NCBI GenBank assembly: GCA_963850305.1
Contig: CAWKKR010000008.1
Span: 768,001 to 832,000 of the forward strand
Source: an uncultured delta proteobacterium
GTDB lineage: Bacteria > Myxococcota_A > Polyangia > Polyangiales > Polyangiaceae
DNA length: 64,000 bases
Reading direction: 5' to 3'
Of this stretch, positions 607 through 64,000 are shown piece by piece. Both the position numbers and the translations under genes were made by a program. Under the pieces are notes generated by a model, which did not search any database, was not told the origin of the DNA, and saw only the letters and a program-made list of their open reading frames with translations. Position 1 is the first letter of the stretch. Each line of letters begins with the position of its first letter.

Positions 607-912
607 CTCGGCGAGGATGCGTCCGTCCTCGGCCAGGATGCGTCCGTCCTCGGCGAGGATGCGTCCATCCTCGGCGAGGATGCGTCCGTCCTCGGCCAGG
701 ATGCGTCCGTCCTCGGCGAGGATGCGTCCGTCCTCGGCGAGGATGCGTCCGTCCTCGGCGAGGATGCGTCCGTCCTCGGCCAGGATGCGTTCGTCCTCGG
801 CCAGAATGCGTTCGTCCTCGGCCAGGATGCGTTCGTCCTCGGCCAGGATGCGTCCGTCCTCGGCCAGGATGCGTCCGTCCTCGGCGAGATCATGCACGTC
901 CTCGGCGAGATC
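607..912. repeat. 21-bp tandem repeat (CTCGGC[G/C]AGGATGCGTCCGTC), 13 conserved units plus 1-2 degenerate
   Basis: 21-bp periodicity seen directly; encodes the heptad ILAEDGR on the minus strand. Confidence 0.95.
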
Positions 913-935
913 AGTGCCTCCCTCGCCCTCGGATC

Positions 936-16382: not shown

Positions 16383-19080
16383 TTGGCCCTCGATCGCGAG
16401 AAGATACTCCAGGCCGCCCAGAAGCATGTCGACAAGAAGAAGTTCGACAAGGCGATCCAGGAATACCAAAAGATCATCCAGCAGGATCCGACCGACGCAC
16501 GGACTCTGCTGAAGATCGGTGATCTGCAAGCGCGGATGGACGCGTACGCGGAGGCGATCGCCACCTATGACCGTGTCGGCCAGCACTACTCGGCGCAGGG
16601 CTTCGCCCTCAAGGCCATCGCCGTTTACAAGCAGATCCGCGAGCTGATCAAGAAGCACGTCCCTCAACTGGAGGACCGGTACGGGCACATCGTTCCGAAG
16701 CTCGCGACGATCTACACGGAGCTCGGGCTCACCACGGACGCCCTCGCCGCGTACGACGAGGTCGCGACCCGGCTACAGCGGGCCGGACGCGACCGCGACG
16801 CGATCGACGTGTTCCGCAAGATGGTGTCGCTCGACGCCACGAACCCGCTTCCTCATCTCCGCCTCGCGGAAGCCTGCTGCCGAGTTCAGGCGGTCGACGA
16901 AGCCATCGATTCGTTCTGGACGGCCGCCGAGCTGTTGATCCGTCTGAAACGGCGCGACGACGCTCTCAAGGTCGTCGAGCGGATCTTGCACTTTCGCGCG
17001 GAAGCCAAGTACGCGCGCGTCGCGGCTCAACTCTATCTGGAACGCGGCGGGCAACAGGACGGCCTGCAAGCGCTCGCGAAGCTGCAGCTCTGCTTCCAGG
17101 CCGATCCGAAGAACATCGAGGTCCTCGATCTCCTGTCCCGCGCCTTCGTCGCGATCGGACAAGCGCCGAAGGCCCTCGAAGTCAAAAAGGAGATCGCTCG
17201 ACTCGCGCAGGAGCAAGGGCGCGCTGACGTGTTCGATGAGGTGATGGCGTTCCTCCGGAACGCGGCCCCGGACGACGAACAGGTGCTTGCGCTGCTGCGC
17301 GGGCCGATGTCCGTGCGGCCCGGGGCAACCTCCCAGCGCCCCGAAGCCAGCTACGACGACGTCGAGTTGATCGACTCATCCGTACACCCGCAACCGAGCT
17401 CGCGGGCGGCCGTATCGATCGTTCCCGATACGTCGGATTTCGACTTCGACGACGAGCCGGTGTCGCGCGGTGCACTCGCGAGCTCCGTGCGGATAGACGA
17501 CGCGGAGCGGGACGTCCGCGCGGCGCGGCCGTTCATGGCGAGCTCCCCGGATGTCGTCGTCGTGGACGAGGACATCGAGGCCGCCGAGGAAATCGTCGGC
17601 GCGGACTCGGCCGATGCGCACGCACATGCCCGGAAAGCGGTCGTGGATGCCGAGTCGTTCCGCGGCCTCCGCCTCTACAGCAAGGCCATCGAGACCTTGC
17701 ACATCGCGCTCGAGATCGAGCCGCAGTCGCTCGAGATTCGCGAAAAGCTCCGCGACGTCTTGCTCGAAGCGGGCGATCGTGACGGCGCGATCGGCGAGAT
17801 GATTTCGCTCGCCGCGATCCACATCGACCGGGGGGCATTCGGAGACGCCGAGGCCGAGCTCTATCAGGTGCTCGAGGCCGAACCAGGACATCCGACGGCC
17901 TTCGAGATGCTCGAGCAACTCGCGGCGTATCGGTGGCGAGGTCGCGCCGTACACCGACGAGCACAATGACACGACCACCGCAGAAGTCGCCGAGCCGGAG
18001 CTCATCCGCGAGCCTTACGACCCCGAGGCGCCGCTGCCCTCGTACGACTTCGAAGAGATCCCGGCGGCCGCTGCGATTCGCGAAGACCCTGCGCACGGTC
18101 GGCGCGCGCTCGAGCAGGCGGATGATCCGTTCGAGACCATGGCCCGCGAGGCGCCGGCACAGGCGTTCCTGCGCAAGGTCGAGGACCTGGATGATTTCAT
18201 CGAAGAGCCAGAGCCCGCCGCGCCTCCGCCCCGGGCGTCACTCGCGCCGTCGGGCGTGGAAGGCATCGAAGAGGCGCTCGAGGAGGCCGAGTTCTTCACG
18301 CTGCGCGGTCTGGTGGACGACGCGCGTGCGATCCTCGTGGACGCGCTCGCGCGGGCACCGGGGCACCCGCTGCTCGTCGAGCGGCTGCGAGAGCTCGACG
18401 GCAACCCGGACACCGCCCAGAGCGGCACGCACGAACGGACCGACCCCGAGCAGGCGCCTCAGGAAGACCGCGTCTTCGACATCGCCGCGTCGCTCGACGC
18501 TCTCGACGAGCTCGAACAAGCCACCCGATCGTCGCGCCCGCCGACGTCACTGCGTCCCGTCGACGAGGTCGACGTCGACCAGGTCTTCGCGAAGTTCAAG
18601 GAAGGCGTCCGCGCGCAGATCTCCGACTCCGACAGCTCGACGCACTACGATCTGGGCGTCGCTTACAAGGAGATGGGCCTCTTGCCCGACGCCATCAACG
18701 AATTCGGCGTCGCCGCCCGGGATCCGAAGTTCGAGTGCACCTGCTACGCCATGATCGGGATGATTCAGCTGGAGCAGGGCCAGTTCGACGATGCCGCCGA
18801 GTCTTACATTCGTGGCCTCGGGGCGGCGCAGAAGACCATCGATCAGGAGATGAGCCTCTATTACGACGTCGGAAACGTGTACGAGCTGAAGGGGAACAAC
18901 CCCGAGGCCCTCTATTACTTTCAGAAGATCGCGCGCCGCGATCCCGGCTACCGCGACGTCAAGGACCGTGTCGACGCCCTGACCCCCGCCTCGGCGGCAA
19001 AGCCGACCGCCGCCAAGCGTCAGCTCCAGAGCGACGACGAGCTCGAAGCCGCCTTCGACGATCTATTCGAATCCAAGTGA
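16383..19080 (+). CDS. Large tetratricopeptide-repeat protein, frameshift near 17931
   Basis: N-terminal TPRs (KAIQEYQKIIQQDPTD), acidic linker, C-terminal TPRs (THYDLGVAYKEMGLLPDAINEF, DPGYRDV). Confidence 0.85.
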
Positions 19081-19092
19081 ATGTCCGCGTGC

Positions 19093-19655
19093 CTACTGGG
19101 AAAGGGGGCCTTGCCCTTGCCCCCGCGGCTCGCTGCGCGACCGCTCCCCCGCCGCCTTCGGCGGGCTCGTGTTCGCAAGGGGGTCTTGACCCCCGCGGCT
19201 CGCTCCGCGACCGCTCCCCCGCCGCCTTCGGCGCGCTCGTGTTCGCAAGGGGGTCTTGACCCCCGCGGCTCGCTTCGCGACCGCTCCCCCGCCGCCTTCG
19301 GCGCGCTCGTGTTCGCAAGGGGGTCTTGACCCCCGCGGCTCGCTCCGCGACCGCTCCCCCGCCGCCTTCGGCGCGCTCGTGTTCGCAAGGGGGTCTTGAC
19401 CCCCGCGGCTTGCTTCGCAACCGCTCCCCCCGCCGCCTTCGGCGCGCTCGTGTTCGCAAGGGGGTCTTGACCCCCGCGGCTCGCTTCGCGACCGCTCCCC
19501 CGCCGCCTTCGGCGGGCTCGTGTTCGCAAGGGGGTCTTGACCCCCGCGGCTTGCTTCGCAACCGCTCCCCCCGCCGCCTTCGGCGCGCTCGCTGCGCTCG
19601 CGTAGTGCCGCGGCTCTTTGATCCCTCGGGGACGACGCTGCTCGTCGATGCGGAA
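19093..19655. repeat. Structured repeat element 1: leader, 6 full plus 1 partial 70-bp units (19121-19591), trailer and ~50-bp tail
   Basis: Unit CCCCGCGGCTCGCTNCGCGACCGCTCCCCCGCCGCCTTCGGCG[C/G]GCTCGTGTTCGCAAGGGGGTCTTGAC starts at 19121, 19191, 19261, 19331, 19401, 19472, 19542. Confidence 0.97.
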
Positions 19656-19668
19656 CTACTAGGAAGCT

Positions 19669-20901
19669 CTACGCCGCATGAGGTTTGATCTCGACTTCGC
19701 AGCCGAGGTCGGTCAAGCGGCGGACGAGGCGTTTGATGGTCTTGCTCTGGTCGCGGCGGTCGAAGTGATGGGGTCCGAGGTCGCGGTAGGGAGTGCCGTC
19801 GCGGAGCATGTAGAAGGCGGCGGTGAGCATCGATGCGGCGACGGCCAAGATCGCCTTCTTTGCTCCACGGCGGGACTTGAGCCGGAGAAACTGGGCTCGA
19901 AGGTAGCTTTCCTTCGTGCGCACCGCGGCCCAGGCGGATGTGACGAGCGTCGTCTTGAGCCAGTTGGCGCTCTTGCGGACGCGCGTCGAGCGACGCTTGC
20001 CGGCGCTCTCGTCGTTGCGGGGGCAGAGGCCGGCCCAGGACACGAGGTGTCCCGCAGACGGGAAGCGCGACATGTCGACGCCGATCTCCGCCACGATCAC
20101 GTTCGCGACGATGTCACTCACTCCCGGCATCGTCGTCAGGATCTCGGCGTGCGCCCGGATCGGCTCCAGCGCTTTTCCCGCAGCTGCATCGATCTCGGCC
20201 AGGGCCCCTTCGAGCGAGCCGATGACGCCGAGATGCAGCTTCAGCATGGCTCGGTGATGAGGGGTAACCCGCCCGCGCAGCGCTTCGATCAAGTCGGCCC
20301 TCTTCTTGCGCGCGGTACCGACCGCGAGATCGGCAAGGCGCTCGGGGTCATCTTCTCCGGCGATGAGAGCGGCGAGCATCGCCCGGCCGCTGGTCCCGAG
20401 CACGCTGGACAGGACGCTCGCGACCTTGATGTTCGAGTCCTCGAGCGTTTTCTGTATGCGCAGCGTGTGCTGGGCGATTTCTCGCACGAGCTGCGCGCGC
20501 GTTCGAGTGAGATCGCGCAGCTCCTGGATTCGCGCAGGAGGCACGAAACTGCTGCGGATCAGCCCGTGCGCGAGCAGATCGGCGATCCACGTCGCGTCGT
20601 TCACGTCGGTCTTGCGCCCTGGCACGTTGCGAATGTGCTGGGCGTTCGCGAGCACGAGTTCGAAGCTCCCTTCGAGCATGTGCCAGACCGGCTTCCAGTA
20701 CACGCCGGTGGCCTCCATCGCCACGTGGGTCACGCCGTGCTCCTCGAGCCATTCCGCCAGCTCGAAGAGGCTACGTGTGGTCGTGCCGAACGTTCGGACC
20801 TCGCGCCGCGTTGGTTCGCTGACGCAGCGCACGCAGGCAACGACGCTATCCTTGTGGACGTCGAGGCCCGCGCAACGGGGATACATGACTTCCATGACCA
20901 T
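19669..20901 (-). CDS. IS110-family DEDD recombinase/transposase
   Basis: GLDVHK, MEATG, KTDVNDA (DEDD), SWAGLCPRNDESAGK (conserved Ser of the Tnp domain). Confidence 0.97.
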   Translation of the reverse strand: MVMEVMYPRCAGLDVHKDSVVACVRCVSEPTRREVRTFGTTTRSLFELAEWLEEHGVTHVAMEATGVYWKPVWHMLEGSFELVLANAQHIRNVPGRKTDVNDATWIADLLAHGLIRSSFVPPARIQELRDLTRTRAQLVREIAQHTLRIQKTLEDSNIKVASVLSSVLGTSGRAMLAALIAGEDDPERLADLAVGTARKKRADLIEALRGRVTPHHRAMLKLHLGVIGSLEGALAEIDAAAGKALEPIRAHAEILTTMPGVSDIVANVIVAEIGVDMSRFPSAGHLVSWAGLCPRNDESAGKRRSTRVRKSANWLKTTLVTSAWAAVRTKESYLRAQFLRLKSRRGAKKAILAVAASMLTAAFYMLRDGTPYRDLGPHHFDRRDQSKTIKRLVRRLTDLGCEVEIKPHAA

Positions 20902-20904
20902 CTC

Positions 20905-21149
20905 CTCCTTTCGGCGCGTCGAGAGGAGCCCTCGTCATCGAAGTCTACTAGGCGTGCTCCCGGATCTTTCGACCCGCGGTCACAATTCGGGGTGCTCGCA
21001 GGGCTCCGGGTCCATCTACTGAACGGGTTCTTGGCACCAAGTCACGGCCGACCTCGTTCCCGACGCCGCGGCAGGATACACTCGACTCCACCGTCCACGC
21101 GACGACCCGAGCTTCATGCTTCGGGGACGGCGCTCTCGCCGATGGGCAT
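20905..21149 (-). ncRNA. Putative IS110 bridge RNA (boundaries approximate)
   Basis: Non-coding left end containing CTACTGA (21016-21022, matches target junction) and TCTACTAGG (20944-20952, matches donor junction). Confidence 0.75.
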
Positions 21150-22520
21150 CTACTGACATTCGTATGGACCGCACAGGATCAGCAAACAGGACTGCTTGCA
21201 AGAGCCGCTCGTGCAGTCCGTGCCCGTCGAGCAGCCTTTGCCTTTTGCACACTTGGCGCAGAGCGCACCGCCGCAGTCGGTGTCCGTCTCGTCGCCGTCT
21301 TTCTTGCCGTCGGTGCAATGCGTCCCGCACTGATTCGCGACGCCCCCGCCAGCGCAGGTCGCCGGCGCCGTGCAGCCCGGGCAAGTCAGCGTGCCGCCGC
21401 ACTTGTCGGAGATGGAACCGCACTCGTTGGCGATGCACTGGGTGAGCGGCGTGCAGCCGCAGATCCCCTCGTTACAAGGTCCGCTCGAGCAATCCGACGT
21501 CGCGGAGCACTTCTTCCCGGGTGCGCAAGTGGCGCCGCAGTTGCCGCCGCAATCCACGTCCGTCTCCGCGGCATTCTGCACGCCGTCCGAGCACGTCGCG
21601 GACTGACACGTGGACTTGGCATTAAAACCCGTCCCCTTCTTGCAGACGTCGCTCGCGCAATCGGTCCCAGCGCCGCAATCCTTGCCGTCCGAGCATTTGC
21701 TACAGACGCCTCCGCCGCAATCCACGTCGGTCTCCGAGCCATCCTTCGTGCCGTCCGAGCAGGTGCTCGGAGGGCCGCCGCCTGCGCCCGTCGTGCCGCC
21801 TGAACCCGTCGTGCCGCCTGAACCCGTCGTGCCGCCTGAACCCGTCGTGCCGCCTGAACCCGTCGTGCCGCCTGCGCCCGTCGTGCCGCCTGCGCTTGTC
21901 GTGCCGCCCGTCGCTGTCGCACCACCTGCGCCCGTCGCGCCGCCTGCGCTTGCCGTGCCCCCCGTGGCTGTAGTACCGCCCGCGCCCGTCGTGATCTCGA
22001 CGCACGTGGACCCCGATGGTTCGTATCCCGAATAACAACCGAACCCGCAAACGCCGCCCGCGCACTCCGGGTAACCGTTTTCGACCGTCGGACACGCGAC
22101 GCAGTGTCCGAGATCGCATCCGTTCGCTGGGCTCGGCGCCACGCACTCTCCCTGGCACTGCTTCTGCGTGGGGTCTGCGCACTCTCCGGCGACGGACCCG
22201 TCGGGCCCGGCGTCCCGAGCTCCCGCGGTGCCCGCTTCCAGACTCTGCAACGCACCGCCCGACGACGCGTCGCTGACGCCGCCCGCTTCGGTTCCTCCCC
22301 CGCCCTGCGTACCTTCGCCGCCCGCGCCCCCACTCGCGCCTACACCGGATCCACCCGTCGCTCCGGAAGCACCGCCCGAAATCACGCCGCCCTCGTCATG
22401 GCGCGCGCCGACGCCGGCATCGCCAAGAGCGCTGATCTTGCCTCCCACCGTCTCCCCGGTCGCGCACCCGACATACGGGGCGACGACGAAGAGCGCAAGA
22501 AACAAGCGTGATCTACGCAT
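21150..22520 (-). CDS. Cys-rich lipoprotein with ETDVDCGG repeats and Gly/Thr linker
   Basis: Lipobox-like YVGC, three CxDGxxx(G/A)xETDxDCGG modules, GGTTGS linker repeats. Confidence 0.85.
   Translation of the reverse strand: MRRSRLFLALFVVAPYVGCATGETVGGKISALGDAGVGARHDEGGVISGGASGATGGSGVGASGGAGGEGTQGGGGTEAGGVSDASSGGALQSLEAGTAGARDAGPDGSVAGECADPTQKQCQGECVAPSPANGCDLGHCVACPTVENGYPECAGGVCGFGCYSGYEPSGSTCVEITTGAGGTTATGGTASAGGATGAGGATATGGTTSAGGTTGAGGTTGSGGTTGSGGTTGSGGTTGSGGTTGAGGGPPSTCSDGTKDGSETDVDCGGGVCSKCSDGKDCGAGTDCASDVCKKGTGFNAKSTCQSATCSDGVQNAAETDVDCGGNCGATCAPGKKCSATSDCSSGPCNEGICGCTPLTQCIANECGSISDKCGGTLTCPGCTAPATCAGGGVANQCGTHCTDGKKDGDETDTDCGGALCAKCAKGKGCSTGTDCTSGSCKQSCLLILCGPYECQ
21783..21990. 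repeat. 18-bp coding tandem repeat (GGTTGS/GGTTGA linker)
   Basis: CCCGTCGTGCCGCCTGAA repeated, degenerating outward. Confidence 0.85.
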
Positions 22521-29312: not shown

Positions 29313-29505
29313 GACGGCCGTCACCTGCTCTCGTTCGACGGACGCATCGCGCAACGGGAACCGTGTCGACGCCTGGCCGCAGCTGCAACAGGGCCATCCC
29401 GACGGCCGGCAGCAGGGGCCGCGCGACTGAGCAACGTCCGGCTCACGCCGAGCAACGTCCGGCTCTGAGCGACCAAGAGACGTGCGTTGATGGGTCGGTG
29501 GCGCC

Positions 29506-29945
29506 CTAGGCAAGGGGCCTTGCCTGCCTTGACCCCCGCGGCTCGCTCCGCGACCGCTCCCCCGCCGCCTTCGGCGGGCTCGTGCTCGCAAGGGGGTCTT
29601 GACCCCCGCGGCTCGCTCCGCGACCGCTCCCCCGCCGCCTTCGGCGGGCTCGTGCTCGCAAGGGGGTCTTGACCCCCGCGGCTCGCTCCGCGACCGCTCC
29701 CCCGCCGCCTTCGGCGGGCTCGTGCTCGCAAGGGGGTCTTGACCCCCGCGGCTCGCTCCGCGACCGCTCCCCCGCCGCCTTCGGCGGGCTCGTGCTCGCA
29801 AGGGGGTCTTGACCCCCGCGGCTCGCTCCGCGACCGCTCCCCCGCCGCCTTCGGCGGGCTCGTGCTCGCAAGGGGGTCTTGACCCCCGCGGCTCGCTCCG
29901 CGACCGCTCCCCCGCCGCCTTCGGCGGGCTCGCTGCGCTCGCTAG
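29506..29945. repeat. Structured repeat element 2: leader, 5 full identical 70-bp units plus 1 partial, trailer; flanked by CTAG...CTAG
   Basis: Units start at 29534, 29604, 29674, 29744, 29814, 29884; same family as 19093-19655. Confidence 0.97.
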
Positions 29946-40588: not shown

Positions 40589-40644
40589 GGTAGCAGGAAT
40601 CGATCCAACGAAGAACGGTAGCAGGAATCGATCCAACGAAGAAC
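40589..40644. repeat. Perfect 28-bp tandem duplication
   Basis: GGTAGCAGGAATCGATCCAACGAAGAAC twice. Confidence 0.95.
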
Positions 40645-62193: not shown

Positions 62194-62549
62194 CTACTAG
62201 GAAAGGGGGGCCTTGCCGCCTTGCCCCCCGCGGCTCGCTTCGCGACCGCTCCCCCGCCGCCTTCGGCGCGCTCGTGTTCGCAAGGGGGTCTTGACCCCCG
62301 CGGCTCGCTTCGCGACCGCTCCCCCGCCGCCTTCGGCGCGCTCGTGTTCGCAAGGGGGTCTTGACCCCCGCGGCTCGCTTCGCGACCGCTCCCCCGCCGC
62401 CTTCGGCGCGCTCGTGTTCGCAAGGGGGTCTTGACCCCCGCGGCTCGCTTCGCGACCGCTCCCCCGCCGCCTTCGGCGGGCTCGCTATGCTCGCGTAGTG
62501 CCGCACCCTCTTTGATCCCTCGGGGACGACGGTGCTCGTCGGTGCGGAA
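62194..62549. repeat. Structured repeat element 3: leader, 3 full plus 1 partial 70-bp units, trailer and ~50-bp tail
   Basis: Units start at 62226, 62296, 62366, 62436; tail homologous to 19606-19655. Confidence 0.97.
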
Positions 62550-62562
62550 CTACTAGGAAGCT

Positions 62563-63795
62563 CTACGCCGCATGAGGTTTGATCTCGACTTCGCAGCCGA
62601 GGTCGGTCAAGCGGCGGACGAGGCGTTTGATGGTCTTGCTCTGGTCGCGGCGGTCGAAGTGATGGGGTCCGAGGTCGCGGTAGGGAGTGCCGTCGCGGAG
62701 CATGTAGAAGGCGGCGGTGAGCATCGATGCGGCGACGGCCAAGATCGCCTTCTTTGCTCCACGGCGGGACTTGAGCCGGAGAAACTGGGCTCGAAGGTAG
62801 CTTTCCTTCGTGCGCACCGCGGCCCAGGCGGATGTGACGAGCGTCGTCTTGAGCCAGTTGGCGCTCTTGCGGACGCGCGTCGAGCGACGCTTGCCGGCGC
62901 TCTCGTCGTTGCGGGGGCAGAGGCCGGCCCAGGACACGAGGTGTCCCGCAGACGGGAAGCGCGACATGTCGACGCCGATCTCCGCCACGATCACGTTCGC
63001 GACGATGTCACTCACTCCCGGCATCGTCGTCAGGATCTCGGCGTGCGCCCGGATCGGCTCCAGCGCTTTTCCCGCAGCTGCATCAATCTCGGCCAGGGCC
63101 CCTTCGAGCGAGCCGATGACGCCGAGATGCAGCTTCAGCATGGCTCGGTGATGAGGGGTAACCCGCCCGCGCAGCGCTTCGATCAAGTCGGCCCTCTTCT
63201 TGCGCGCGGTACCGACCGCGAGATCGGCAAGGCGCTCGGGGTCATCTTCTCCGGCGATGAGAGCGGCGAGCATCGCCCGGCCGCTGGTCCCGAGCACGCT
63301 GGACAGGACGCTCGCGACCTTGATGTTCGAGTCCTCGAGCGTTTTCTGTATGCGCAGCGTGTGCTGGGCGATTTCTCGCACGAGCTGCGCGCGCGTTCGA
63401 GTGAGATCGCGCAGCTCCTGGATTCGCGCAGGAGGCACGAAACTGCTGCGGATCAGCCCGTGCGCGAGCAGATCGGCGATCCACGTCGCGTCGTTCACGT
63501 CGGTCTTGCGCCCTGGCACGTTGCGAATGTGCTGGGCGTTCGCGAGCACGAGTTCGAAGCTCCCTTCGAGCATGTGCCAGACCGGCTTCCAGTACACGCC
63601 GGTGGCCTCCATCGCCACGTGGGTCACGCCGTGCTCCTCGAGCCATTCCGCCAGCTCGAAGAGGCTACGTGTGGTCGTGCCGAACGTTCGGACCTCGCGC
63701 CGCGTTGGTTCGCTGACGCAGCGCACGCAGGCAACGACGCTATCCTTGTGGACGTCGAGGCCCGCGCAACGGGGATACATGACTTCCATGACCAT
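62563..63795 (-). CDS. IS110-family DEDD recombinase/transposase
   Basis: Protein identical to 19669-20901. Confidence 0.97.
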   Translation of the reverse strand: MVMEVMYPRCAGLDVHKDSVVACVRCVSEPTRREVRTFGTTTRSLFELAEWLEEHGVTHVAMEATGVYWKPVWHMLEGSFELVLANAQHIRNVPGRKTDVNDATWIADLLAHGLIRSSFVPPARIQELRDLTRTRAQLVREIAQHTLRIQKTLEDSNIKVASVLSSVLGTSGRAMLAALIAGEDDPERLADLAVGTARKKRADLIEALRGRVTPHHRAMLKLHLGVIGSLEGALAEIDAAAGKALEPIRAHAEILTTMPGVSDIVANVIVAEIGVDMSRFPSAGHLVSWAGLCPRNDESAGKRRSTRVRKSANWLKTTLVTSAWAAVRTKESYLRAQFLRLKSRRGAKKAILAVAASMLTAAFYMLRDGTPYRDLGPHHFDRRDQSKTIKRLVRRLTDLGCEVEIKPHAA

Positions 63796-63798
63796 CTC

Positions 63799-64000
63799 CT
63801 CCTTTCGGCGCGTCGAGAGGAGCCCTCGTCATCGAAGTCTACTAGGCGTGCTCCCGGATCTTTCGACCCGCGGTCACAATTCGGGGTGCTCGCAGGGCTC
63901 CGGGTCCATCTACTGAACGGGTTCTTGGCACCAAGTCACGGCCGACCTCGTTCCCGACGCCGCGGCAGGATACACTCGACTCCACCGTCCACGCGACGAC
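63799..64000 (-). ncRNA. Putative IS110 bridge RNA, partial
   Basis: Same non-coding region as copy 1, with guide candidates at 63910-63916 and 63838-63846. Confidence 0.7.

What the first reader, a model, noticed from the sequence alone, without database searches (positions are those of the whole stretch)
19093..21152. IS110 bridge recombinase inserted twice at the same base of a structured tandem-repeat element
Seen: both IS110 copies (19656, 62550) begin right after ...TGCGGAA|CTA, the end of a ~50-bp tail that follows a 70-bp tandem array. The IS copies differ by about 1 SNP in 1.45 kb, but the tails differ at several positions (GCGGCTC/GCACCCTC, GCTGC/GGTGC, GATGCGG/GGTGCGG) and the arrays differ in unit number (6.7 vs 3.7). 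Known: IS621 (IS110 family) uses a bridge RNA to target REP repeats. Inference: the repeat element is an older, multicopy landing pad that this RNA-guided recombinase targets. This repeat/IS110 partnership may be undescribed in myxobacteria.
Basis: partly seen in the sequence, partly recalled or inferred. Interest (0 to 1): 0.88.

Follow-up and report, generated by a model that had tools for sequence, protein, structure and literature searches.

The report
IS110 element docked beside related mini-elements
A bridge-RNA-type (IS110 family) insertion sequence in a myxobacterial genome sits almost always head-to-tail against a much older, roughly 70-copy family of small repeat elements whose ends imitate the insertion sequence's own ends, a natural example of how such RNA-guided elements pick landing sites.

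Summary
Both window copies of an IS110-family element start right after ...GCGGAA|CT|ACT at the end of a ~60-bp tail that follows a 70-bp array. Genome-wide, 7 of 8 copies do so.

The reading is partly right.
- The tail is an independent multicopy element: 73 copies, about 64 without the IS. It also occurs in three sister genomes that lack the IS.
- It is not an unrelated REP-like pad. Its end is homologous to the IS end next to the bridge-RNA gene, and its other end matches the IS donor guide. It is a MITE-like relative of the IS, as in ISPpu9/MITEPpu9.
- Covariation across about 30 relatives locates two guides. One reads CT-ACTGA (core plus flank). The other reads the IS's own tnp-distal end.
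- No guide that reads the tail itself was found.
- Among 60 CTACTGA sites eligible before insertion, the IS took 7 of 16 tail sites and 1 of 44 others. Something beyond that guide favours tails.
- IS-linked arrays share one subtype (5 of 5 versus 1 of 31), and tail variants follow IS lineage. The hits are therefore not all independent.

Verdict: a new member or variant of a known kind, of moderate interest.

The parts
19093..19657 (+). Repeat element copy 1 (MITE-like). It runs from the left core CT (19093-19094) through the left end ACTGGGAAAGGGGG..., the 70-bp array and the tail to the right core CT (19656-19657).
   Evidence: CTACT flanks both ends. The flanks GAATGTC (19079-19085) and GACATTC (21155-21161) form a perfect inverted repeat, which suggests they were once contiguous.
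19116..19591 (+). 70-bp tandem array, 6.8 units. Each unit carries three short hairpins, two with TTCG loops.
   Evidence: 95% matches. One search gives a folding z-score of about -2 on either strand, which is modest.
19592..19655 (+). Tail. Inner arm GTAGTGCCGC (19602-19611), hairpin CGACG-CTGCT-CGTCG (19633-19647), terminal GATGCGGAA. Read on the minus strand it resembles the bridge-RNA-side end of the IS.
   Evidence: 73 genomic copies; a profile HMM built from 61 tails hits the IS end with E=6.8e-6; sister-genome tails are 97% identical to the IS end over 31 nt.
19656..19657 (.). Core dinucleotide CT (AG in transposase orientation) at the tail/IS junction.
   Evidence: The same dinucleotide lies at both junctions of all 8 copies and ends both verified guides.
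19658..21151 (-). IS110-family insertion sequence copy 1 (1494 bp, counting one core).
19669..20901 (-). Transposase/recombinase gene, 410 aa. Motifs GLDVH (D14), MEATG (E63), TDVND (D99, D102), PGVS (S262).
20902..21149 (-). Upstream non-coding region encoding the bridge-RNA-like scaffold, conserved in relatives with 48-85% protein identity.
   Evidence: There is no Rfam match.
21008..21014 (-). Guide 1, RNA UCAGUAG. It pairs with CT-ACTGA (core plus flank). It is the right target guide if the CT strand is taken as top. The next two RNA bases, AU (21006-21007), equal the first two bases of the IS end, as a handshake guide would.
   Evidence: a 7-nt or longer match to the flank in 26 of 33 readable relatives' loci; 22-25 of 25; 16 of 18 distinct.
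20945..20952 (-). Guide 2, RNA CCUAGUAG. It pairs with CT-ACTAGG, the IS end next to the transposase stop codon (right donor guide).
   Evidence: a 6-nt or longer match in 28 of 33; 19-21 of 21.
21041..21048 (-). Candidate left target guide patch (RNA CCGUGA-CU). Not established.
   Evidence: It matches the flank well in some relatives (L032 6 of 6, L033 5 of 5) and not in others. It matches the tail at 3 of 7 positions.
21128..21141 (-). Subterminal hairpin of the IS end (CGGCG-CUCU-CGCCG), the counterpart of the tail hairpin.
   Evidence: the stem is kept in relatives with different sequences.
21150..21156 (+). Second core CT plus ACTGA, the flank read by guide 1. It overlaps the stop codon of the convergent ORF 21150..22520.
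62194..62551 (+). Repeat element copy 2: left core, 3.8-unit array, tail and right core.
62552..64000 (-). IS copy 2. It runs off the window; the genome copy ends 46 bp beyond it.
29505..29945 (+). Third array of the same family (5.8 identical units). It has no tail, no IS, and a different unit-junction subtype.

Best explanation
The 19093-21152 stretch is two mobile modules in head-to-tail tandem.

Module 1 is a non-autonomous, MITE-like element made of a left end, n x 70-bp hairpin units and a tail. It belongs to a family of roughly 70-90 copies. One end imitates the IS end next to the bridge-RNA gene, with the same order of core, short variable stretch, CATCG and subterminal hairpin. The other end carries the 8-nt match to the IS donor guide.

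Module 2 is a young IS110-family element with 8 near-identical copies. It encodes a DEDD/Ser recombinase and a bridge-type RNA.

The IS joins the repeat by recombinase-mediated exchange at the CT core of the site [tail GCGGAA]-CT-[ACTGA].

Shown:
- Guide 1 of the RNA pairs with CT-ACTGA.
- Guide 2 pairs with the IS's own far end.
- The tail family is older and wider than the IS.
- Tails are preferred over other sites that match guide 1.

Inferred:
- The extra preference comes from the tail being a mimic of the IS's own donor half-site, including its hairpin. The complex then treats tail-CT-ACTGA like its own end junction. This would be a natural case of the donor half-match insertion reported for IS621.
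- Once paired, the IS and the adjacent part of the repeat spread or convert together as modules (IS alone, repeat alone, IS plus repeat), as shown experimentally for ISPpu9/MITEPpu9.
For: - IS family: Pfam hits. The genome holds 8 copies and no other IS110-type or Y1 transposase.
- Junctions: 7 of 8 copies lie at a tail end, and 8 of 8 have CT-ACTGA on the other side.
- Guides: covariation in relatives from many phyla, with 14 distinct guide-1 heptamers each matching its own flank. The two bases after guide 1 track the IS end.
- Tail preference: 7 of 16 tail sites occupied against 1 of 44 other CTACTGA sites, P=2e-4.
- Hairpin variant: occupied tails are all of one variant, 7 of 7 against 4 of 11 empty ones, Fisher 0.013.
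- Homology of tail and IS end: nhmmer E=6.8e-6. Sister-genome tails end in the IS-type GGGCAT.
- Other repeat end: CTACTAGG is exact in 8 of 26 left ends and within one mismatch in 16 of 26.
- The repeats are themselves inserted at CT(ACT). Evidence: tandem repeat-after-tail cases, a pair with matching outer TCCT cores, and a 125-bp mini-element sitting exactly on the guide-1-coding DNA in 2 of 8 IS copies.
- Age: tails occur in G002 (30 matches), G006 (29) and G004 (3) without the IS.
- Co-descent: the unit-junction subtype TGTTCGCAA is in 5 of 5 IS-linked multi-unit arrays against 1 of 31 others. The tail variant GTAGTGCCGC is in 3 of 3 tails of IS lineage A, 0 of 4 of lineage B and 0 of 66 other tails.
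- Precedents: PMC12288879 (introduction and discussion read), 10.64898/2026.08.31.748434 (abstract and one section read).
Against: - No guide that reads the tail side was located. The candidate patch matches the tail at 3 of 7 positions and is inconsistent among relatives. RNA-guided reading of the tail is therefore unproven, and the donor-mimic idea is inference.
- None of about 20 distinct relatives, including the same-genus one at 59% protein identity, lies next to a tail-like sequence.
- The shared array subtype and tail variants mean the 7 tail insertions are not independent, so P=2e-4 is too optimistic.
- Most repeat copies are 78-98% alike while IS copies are at least 99.7% alike. Most repeats were therefore placed by something earlier than this IS.
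- The tail's terminal AA does not fit this IS's AU handshake bases.
- The left ends and flanks of IS-linked repeats differ, which argues against simple whole-composite moves.
- There are no data on circles, transcripts or empty orthologous sites. The sister genomes were too diverged to compare, and only fragmentary contigs could be laid.
Confidence: 0.62

Rival explanations
1. The repeat is an unrelated, older REP-like landing pad. The bridge RNA's target loop is fully programmed for the tail, and each IS copy is an independent RNA-guided hit.
For: - 7 of 8 copies lie at the same base.
- The tails are older and mostly IS-free.
- The repeats next to the IS copies differ in left ends, flanks and unit numbers.
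- IS621 and ISPpu9/10 target REPs (PMC11208160 passages; PMC12288879).
Against: - The tail is homologous to the IS's own end, and the repeat's other end carries the donor-guide match.
- The verified target guide covers CT-ACTGA only. The candidate second guide matches the tail at 3 of 7 positions.
- IS-linked arrays share one subtype, Fisher 1.6e-5.
- The tail variant tracks IS lineage.
- The genome has no Y1/RAYT transposase of the kind that usually accompanies REPs: 0 matches at 94.8% completeness.
Confidence: 0.15
2. Pure composite transposon. One founding IS-plus-repeat pair moves as a single unit, bounded by the IS bridge-RNA-side end and the repeat's far end. Tails are not targeted at all, and adjacency is inherited.
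For: - Shared array subtype, 5 of 5 against 1 of 31.
- A rare tail variant is confined to one IS lineage.
- The repeat's far end matches the donor guide.
- ISPpu9 forms such composite circles (PMC12288879).
Against: - The left ends of IS-linked repeats differ by about 10% and by indels, while the IS differs by at most 0.3%.
- Unit orders and numbers differ, from 0.75 to 8.5 units.
- The tails of window copies 1 and 2 differ at about 6 of 55 positions.
- One IS copy has no repeat.
- Close relatives of the IS end at the canonical CCTAGT-AG with no repeat attached.
Confidence: 0.15
3. The tail is simply part of the IS, so the IS right end is longer than assumed.
For: The tail is adjacent to the IS in 7 of 8 copies.
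Against: - 64 tails lie without any IS.
- One IS copy lacks the tail.
- Relatives' IS copies end before it.
- Guide 2 marks the IS end at CCTAGT-AG.
Confidence: 0.02
4. The copies arose by segmental duplication or homologous recombination rather than by transposition.
For: Four copies lie within about 150 kb on one contig.
Against: Homology stops exactly at the CT cores in all 8 copies, with unrelated sequence beyond. The copies lie on four contigs.
Confidence: 0.03

Closest known systems
ISPpu9 with MITEPpu9 (the ssr9 module) of Pseudomonas putida KT2440 (PMC12288879; introduction and discussion read)
   Same: - An IS110-group element whose ends are imitated by a small non-autonomous module.
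- The module lies directly downstream of the transposase gene in most IS copies (5 of 7 there, 7 of 8 here) and also occurs alone.
- Exchange happens at an AG/CT dinucleotide.
- A short palindrome is shared by the IS left end and the sequence on the right of the insertion.
- Tandem modules occur.
   Different: - The module there has 8 copies and encodes one sRNA. Here there are about 70 tails and 89 array loci built from 70-bp tandem units.
- ISPpu9 and its MITE both land in REPs. Here the sequence next to the IS is the module's own end, and no separate REP family was seen.
- Circles were shown experimentally there and nothing was shown here.
- The host here is a myxobacterium.
IS621 bridge recombinase and bridge RNA (PMC11208160 and PMC11208158; passages read)
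   Same: - DEDD plus Ser recombinase domains.
- An upstream non-coding RNA with guide segments ending in the core complement.
- A CT core.
- A guide on the 3' side of each loop that pairs with core plus right arm, followed by two handshake-type bases.
- Natural insertion into repeats.
   Different: - Protein and RNA belong to a different subfamily with no Rfam model.
- The right target guide is 7 nt here, against 4 nt in IS621.
- The left guides could not be located.
- IS621's REP target is not related to its own ends.
Half-match (donor-half) insertion of IS621 (bioRxiv 10.64898/2026.08.31.748434; abstract and one results section read)
   Same: Sites that match only one arm, including donor-arm look-alikes, are used for insertion. 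The site here combines a donor-like arm with a cognate right target arm.
   Different: Half-match insertion is a minority off-target class in assays there. Here it would be the main natural site. This is untested.
ISPpu10 target stem-loop (bioRxiv 10.64898/2026.03.19.712850; abstract only)
   Same: A stem-loop beside the base-paired target acts as a second specificity layer. Here, occupied tails are all of one hairpin variant.
   Different: The evidence here is only a 7 of 7 against 4 of 11 correlation (P=0.013), confounded by relatedness.
IS4321/IS5075 (IS1111 group), which target the terminal repeats of Tn21-family transposons (title seen in the reference list of PMC11208160)
   Same: An IS of the wider family that lands in the end of another mobile element.
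   Different: A different subgroup, and the target element is unrelated to the IS. I know it from the title and from recall only.

Membership tests
IS110 family insertion sequence (IS110 group, bridge recombinase) | N-terminal DEDD (RuvC-like) transposase domain | tested here: met
   PF01548 E=7e-28, covering 1-152 of 155 profile positions. Motifs with D14, E63, D99 and D102 are present. The residues were assigned by motif, not by alignment to IS621.
IS110 family insertion sequence (IS110 group, bridge recombinase) | C-terminal Transposase_20 domain with the catalytic serine | tested here: met
   PF02371 E=1.4e-22. PGVS motif with S262.
IS110 family insertion sequence (IS110 group, bridge recombinase) | No terminal inverted repeats, a long non-coding region upstream of the gene, and the same core dinucleotide at both junctions | tested here: met
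   About 250 nt lie upstream and 11 nt downstream of the gene. CT is at both junctions in 8 of 8 copies.
IS110 family insertion sequence (IS110 group, bridge recombinase) | Non-coding RNA with target-binding and donor-binding loops whose four guides covary with target and donor | tested here: inconclusive
   Two guides (right target, right donor) covary strongly in relatives, and handshake-type bases fit. The two left guides were not located. RNA expression was not observable.
IS110 family insertion sequence (IS110 group, bridge recombinase) | Circular intermediate joining the two ends | not testable with these tools
   Only fragmentary metagenome contigs were available, and they showed no joints.
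IS110-derived MITE-like element (MITEPpu9 type) | Ends resembling the two ends of the parent IS, flanked by the core | tested here: met
   The tail matches the IS end with E=6.8e-6. The left end CTACTAGG is exact in 8 of 26 copies and within one mismatch in 16 of 26.
IS110-derived MITE-like element (MITEPpu9 type) | No transposase of its own, with multiple dispersed copies both linked to the IS and alone | tested here: met
   Elements are 125 to about 700 bp of repeats. Of 73 tails, 7 are IS-linked, 2 lie inside IS copies and 64 stand alone.
IS110-derived MITE-like element (MITEPpu9 type) | Mobilised in trans by the IS recombinase | not testable with these tools
   Indirect evidence only. A mini-element is inserted exactly at the guide-1-coding DNA of the IS. 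GA is enriched after CTACT at tail flanks, in 13 of about 37 non-tandem cases by my own tally of the listing, not computed by a script.
REP/BIME-type landing pad with RAYT | Short extragenic palindromic unit in many copies | tested here: inconclusive
   The tail has 10-11-bp terminal inverted arms and an inner hairpin, but its folding z-scores are not significant (+0.95 and -0.45). It is homologous to the IS end.
REP/BIME-type landing pad with RAYT | An associated Y1 (RAYT) transposase in the genome | tested here: not met
   PF01797 has 0 matches in the genome, which is 94.8% complete. The control search hit 6 of 14 reference genomes.

The most novel reading that the evidence does not exclude
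The IS chooses its landing sites mainly by donor-type recognition. The end of a resident non-autonomous relative imitates the IS's own end (core, short arm, hairpin), so tail-CT-ACTGA looks like the IS's own junction. The repeat family would then be a genome-wide network of safe docks at gene ends that the IS and its mini-relatives share. A side effect follows: the guide is encoded in sense, so the bridge-RNA gene itself contains a perfect copy of the target arm and is hit by a mini-element in 2 of 8 IS copies. That would be a built-in self-targeting that inactivates or reprograms the target loop.
Probability: 0.25. Interest if true: 0.7.

Novelty: new variant of a known kind. Interest (0 to 1): 0.5.

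Why it matters
Bridge recombinases are being developed as programmable DNA-insertion tools, and what limits their specificity in nature is an open question. This genome offers a natural tally. There were 60 sites matching the verified 7-nt guide, of which 16 carried a look-alike of the IS's own end. Occupation was 7 of 16 against 1 of 44, with a further split by hairpin variant.

If the bias holds up in an assay, it would show donor-arm or hairpin recognition acting as a second, guide-independent layer of target choice in a subfamily distant from IS621. It would also document a large family of IS110-type mini-elements outside Pseudomonas.

For genome annotation, it explains a family of roughly 70-90 intergenic repeats in this myxobacterial genus.

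Tried and rejected
- Rfam scan of 18900-21400 at E<=1 found nothing.
- Single-sequence folding of the non-coding region was uninformative, z=0.05.
- I first assumed that the guide before the conserved UGGACC was a left target guide, taking the transposase strand as top. Comparison with the IS621 papers shows it fits the right target guide if the CT strand is top. I relabelled it.
- Search for the left target and left donor guides, three attempts:
  - k-mer matching was inconclusive.
  - A column-by-position covariation scan over 20-25 relatives recovered only the two right guides.
  - Inspection of variable patches gave one candidate that fits some relatives and not others.
- The GGGAAC patch that looked complementary to the tail is shared by a relative with a different flank, so I dropped it.
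- Orthologous empty sites could not be recovered. The gene left of site 1 is found in 4 of 5 same-genus genomes at 78-80% identity, but the downstream region is not conserved.
- Public runs: no RNA holder is listed. Four soil-metagenome runs of one study hold about a third of the sampled words as short contigs. When laid, they gave no joints, no empty site and no circle junction.
- A loose fuzzy search for the repeat's left end and a loose regular expression for tail ends returned mostly noise. I replaced them with BLAST-based lists.
- The relative in same-genus genome G001 (59% protein identity) is not next to a tail.
- nhmmer with the tail profile did not reach the ends of the more distant relatives' IS copies at E<=10. 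The family-wide resemblance (AG-TT-nnn-CATCG-hairpin-CCCCGA) is by eye.

Full report
**What is there.**
Window 19093-21152 holds two things in a row.

The first is a repeat element. It opens with CTACT (19093-19097), continues with a G-rich left end and 6.8 tandem 70-bp units (19116-19591), and closes with a tail of about 60 bp ending ...GATGCGGAA.

The second is a 1494-bp IS. It follows directly after the dinucleotide CT (19656-19657). Its 410-aa gene lies on the minus strand (19669-20901), with 11 nt between the stop codon and the IS end and about 250 nt of non-coding DNA upstream. The IS ends ...GATGGGCAT-CT (21150-21151), followed by ACTGA.

The protein carries both IS110-family domains: PF01548 at 7e-28 and PF02371 at 1.4e-22. 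Motifs with D14, E63, D99, D102 and S262 are present. IS621's essential residues are D11, E60, D102, D105 and S241 (PMC11208158, passage). The correspondence is by motif only.

**Genome-wide census.**
- The IS has 8 copies at 99.7-100% identity. Two of them carry a 125-bp insert, and one has a frameshift in the last codons.
- No other IS110-type transposase and no Y1/RAYT transposase was found.
- Seven of 8 copies lie directly after a tail, always in the same orientation. The eighth follows an unrelated sequence, ...GACGGGG-CT.
- All 8 have CT-ACTGA on the other side.
- The tail has 73 BLAST copies at E<1e-4: 7 next to the IS, 2 inside IS copies and 64 elsewhere.
- The 70-bp unit hits 243 places in 89 loci.
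- After ...GCGGAAC most tails continue TACT and then diverge.

**Age.**
No close copy of the IS was found in 40 related genomes. The best match is 70% DNA identity (59% protein identity) in one same-genus genome.

The tail, by contrast, is abundant in three of six other same-genus genomes. G002 has 30 matches, G006 has 29 and G004 has 3, at 78-90% identity. These counts are limited by the number of candidates scored. The repeat family is therefore older and wider than this IS expansion.

**The RNA guides.**
I fetched 41 loci encoding relatives of the transposase at 48-85% identity, from Polyangiaceae, Anaeromyxobacteraceae, proteobacterial, acidobacterial, Dehalococcoidia and other assemblies. 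Their upstream regions align into a conserved scaffold with variable patches.

*Guide 1.* The 7 nt before the conserved (U/A)UGGACC equal, in each element, the five flank bases plus AG that abut the IS end next to the RNA gene.
- A match of 7 nt or more was found in 26 of 33 loci where the guide could be read.
- There are 14 different heptamers.
- Column statistics are 22-25 of 25.

*Guide 2.* The 8 nt after the conserved GAGCACG equal the last bases of the other IS end plus AG.
- A match of 6 nt or more was found in 28 of 33 loci.
- Column statistics are 19-21 of 21.

*Labels.* I take the CT strand as top, as in the IS621 papers (PMC11208160 and PMC11208158, passages). On that reading these are the right target guide (UCAGU-AG, window 21008-21014) and the right donor guide (CCUAGU-AG, window 20945-20952). 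Both sit on the 3' side of their loops, as in IS621.

*Handshake bases.* The two bases after guide 1 (AU here, UU in most relatives) equal the first two bases of the IS end in 16 of 18 distinct cases. This is what a handshake guide would do, but only two variants exist, so the evidence is thin.

*Left guides.* I could not locate the two left guides. The candidate patch (CCGUGA-CU, window 21041-21048) fits the flank in some relatives (6 of 6 in L032, 5 of 5 in L033), fails in others, and matches the tail at 3 of 7 positions. The only verified reading of the target is therefore CT-ACTGA: the core, the last three bases usually found after the tail, and two flank bases.

**Is the tail preferred beyond that guide?**
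The genome has 68 CTACTGA sites against 363 expected from base composition. The motif carries stop codons on both strands. They divide as follows:
- 8 are the IS junctions themselves.
- 6 are the guide-1-coding DNA of intact IS copies.
- 11 are tail ends, 2 of them inside IS copies.
- 43 are unrelated.

Before insertion there were thus 16 tail sites and 44 others. The IS took 7 and 1, hypergeometric P=2e-4. All 7 occupied tails have one hairpin variant (..TGCTCGTCG), against 4 of 11 empty ones, Fisher 0.013. Something on the tail side matters, but see the section on non-independence below.

**What the repeat is.**
Read in transposase orientation, the tail has the same build as the IS end next to the RNA gene: AG, two bases, a short variable stretch, CATCG, a hairpin, CCCCGA.
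- A profile HMM of 61 tails hits that IS end with E=6.8e-6 in a small database of 37 upstream regions. It does not reach the more distant relatives.
- In sister genomes the tails end in GGGCAT or GGGAAT, up to 97% identical to this IS's end over 31 nt.
- The hairpin stem differs between tail (CGACG/CGTCG) and IS (CGGCG/CGCCG) by a compensated change. In relatives it is kept with quite different sequences.
- The repeat's other end reads CTACTAGG, the exact match to guide 2, in 8 of 26 left ends. It is within one mismatch in 16 of 26.

The repeats behave as insertions at the same kind of site.
- Several follow another element's tail in tandem.
- One tandem pair has TCCT at both outer cores and TACT inside.
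- At site 1 the sequences outside the repeat-plus-IS block are a perfect 7-bp inverted repeat (19079-19085 and 21155-21161), as if they were once contiguous.
- A 125-bp mini-element sits exactly on the guide-1-coding DNA (...CCAT-CT-ACTGAAC...) in 2 of 8 IS copies. Those two inserts are identical to each other, and other copies of the mini-element are 90-98% alike.

Because the guide is encoded in sense, the RNA gene necessarily contains a perfect copy of the target arm. This insertion is the best indirect sign that the mini-elements follow this family's guide.

Taken together, the repeat is a non-autonomous, MITE-like relative of the IS, not an unrelated REP. The 70-bp units form three small hairpins, two with TTCG loops, with folding z-scores of about -2 on either strand. 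The tail alone is not significantly stable. 'Structured' is fair but modest.

**Are the seven tail insertions independent?**
No.
- Among 36 array loci with at least one unit junction, the subtype TGTTCGCAA is in 5 of 5 IS-linked arrays and 1 of 31 others, Fisher 1.6e-5.
- The eight IS copies fall into two lineages by a double substitution. Lineage A is the four copies on contig C8. Lineage B is the four copies on three other contigs.
- The rare tail variant GTAGTGCCGC occurs in the three tails of lineage A, in none of lineage B, and in none of the other 66 tails.
- Against this, the left ends, flanks, unit orders and unit numbers of the IS-linked repeats differ far more than the IS copies do. 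The two window tails differ at about 6 of 55 positions.

The simplest account is a mixture: insertion of the IS beside resident repeats, followed by joint spread or gene conversion of the IS-proximal part. I cannot separate these with the data at hand.

**Comparison with what is known.**
The closest case is ISPpu9 with MITEPpu9 in Pseudomonas putida (PMC12288879; introduction and discussion read). That system has:
- an IS110-group element;
- a small module with look-alike ends lying downstream of the transposase gene in 5 of 7 copies and alone elsewhere;
- circles of the IS, the module, or both;
- a palindrome shared by the IS left end and the right side of the insertion site.

Two preprints supply precedents for the layers of recognition I invoke. 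IS621 can insert at sites matching only a donor arm (10.64898/2026.08.31.748434; abstract and one section read). The ISPpu10 target needs an adjacent stem-loop (10.64898/2026.03.19.712850; abstract only).

New here are the host group, the size of the repeat family, its tandem-array build, the fact that the sequence beside the IS is the repeat's own IS-like end rather than a separate REP, and the hit in the RNA gene.

A library search for IS110 together with myxobacterial terms listed no paper holding both among its top 12 of 553. A search for IS110 with MITE returned the ISPpu9 paper as the only directly relevant one among its 15 listed. Supplements were not consulted.

**Verdict.**
- Observation: confirmed.
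- Interpretation: partly supported.
- Best explanation (0.62): a young bridge-RNA IS docked, by exchange at CT, against the IS-like end of an older family of its own non-autonomous relatives. One verified guide reads CT-ACTGA, and an unverified second layer (donor-arm or hairpin mimicry) favours tails. Partial co-propagation follows.
- Novelty: a new variant of a known kind.
- Interest: 0.5.

Noticed in passing
genome C8:718134-719759 and C5:149078-150704 (outside the window); the equivalent window position is 21008: Two of the eight IS copies carry an identical 125-bp mini-element inserted exactly at the DNA that encodes guide 1 of the bridge-type RNA. After the insertion, the bases next to the conserved UGGACC read like the IS's own donor arm (..CCUAGUAG). 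The target loop of these copies is therefore disrupted or re-aimed at element ends.
   Followed up: partly
window 29505-29945: A third array of the same 70-bp family has 5.8 units at 100% identity. It has no tail and no IS and ends ...GCTCGC|TAGAAACC. Its unit-junction subtype (TGCTCGCAA) differs from the one next to the IS copies.
   Followed up: partly
window 21150-21156 and genome C5 near 298939-299551: The target motif CTACTGA overlaps natural stop codons of flanking genes: the TAG of the convergent ORF 21150..22520, and an apparent ...CAC TAC TGA gene end at another copy. The motif is about five times rarer than base composition predicts (68 against 363).
   Followed up: partly
window 21777-21993: An 18-bp tandem repeat with 12 copies at 81% matches lies inside the long minus-strand ORF 21150..22520, so it probably encodes a hexapeptide repeat.
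   Followed up: no
window 607-925: A 21-bp tandem repeat with 14.4 copies at 93% matches. Earlier notes of this scan describe 21-bp minisatellites elsewhere in this genome.
   Followed up: no
genome C8:864852-866348 (outside the window): This IS copy has a one-base insertion near the 3' end of the transposase gene, so the protein match stops at residue 403. It also has an extra 3-base repeat at its junction (..CATCTACTACTGA).
   Followed up: no
loci L022, L024, L028, L044 (Acidobacteriota/Terriglobales assemblies): Relatives of this IS sit next to a conserved palindromic sequence (..GCCGGTCTCCGGC..) at four different loci. This may be a REP-type target in those genomes.
   Followed up: no
locus L021 (Dehalococcoidia chromosome): The sequence after the tnp-distal end of this relative starts like the bridge-RNA-side end of another copy of the same IS. 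This suggests a head-to-tail tandem of two elements or a solo end.
   Followed up: no
window 40589-40644: A perfect 28-bp direct repeat, 2 copies.
   Followed up: no
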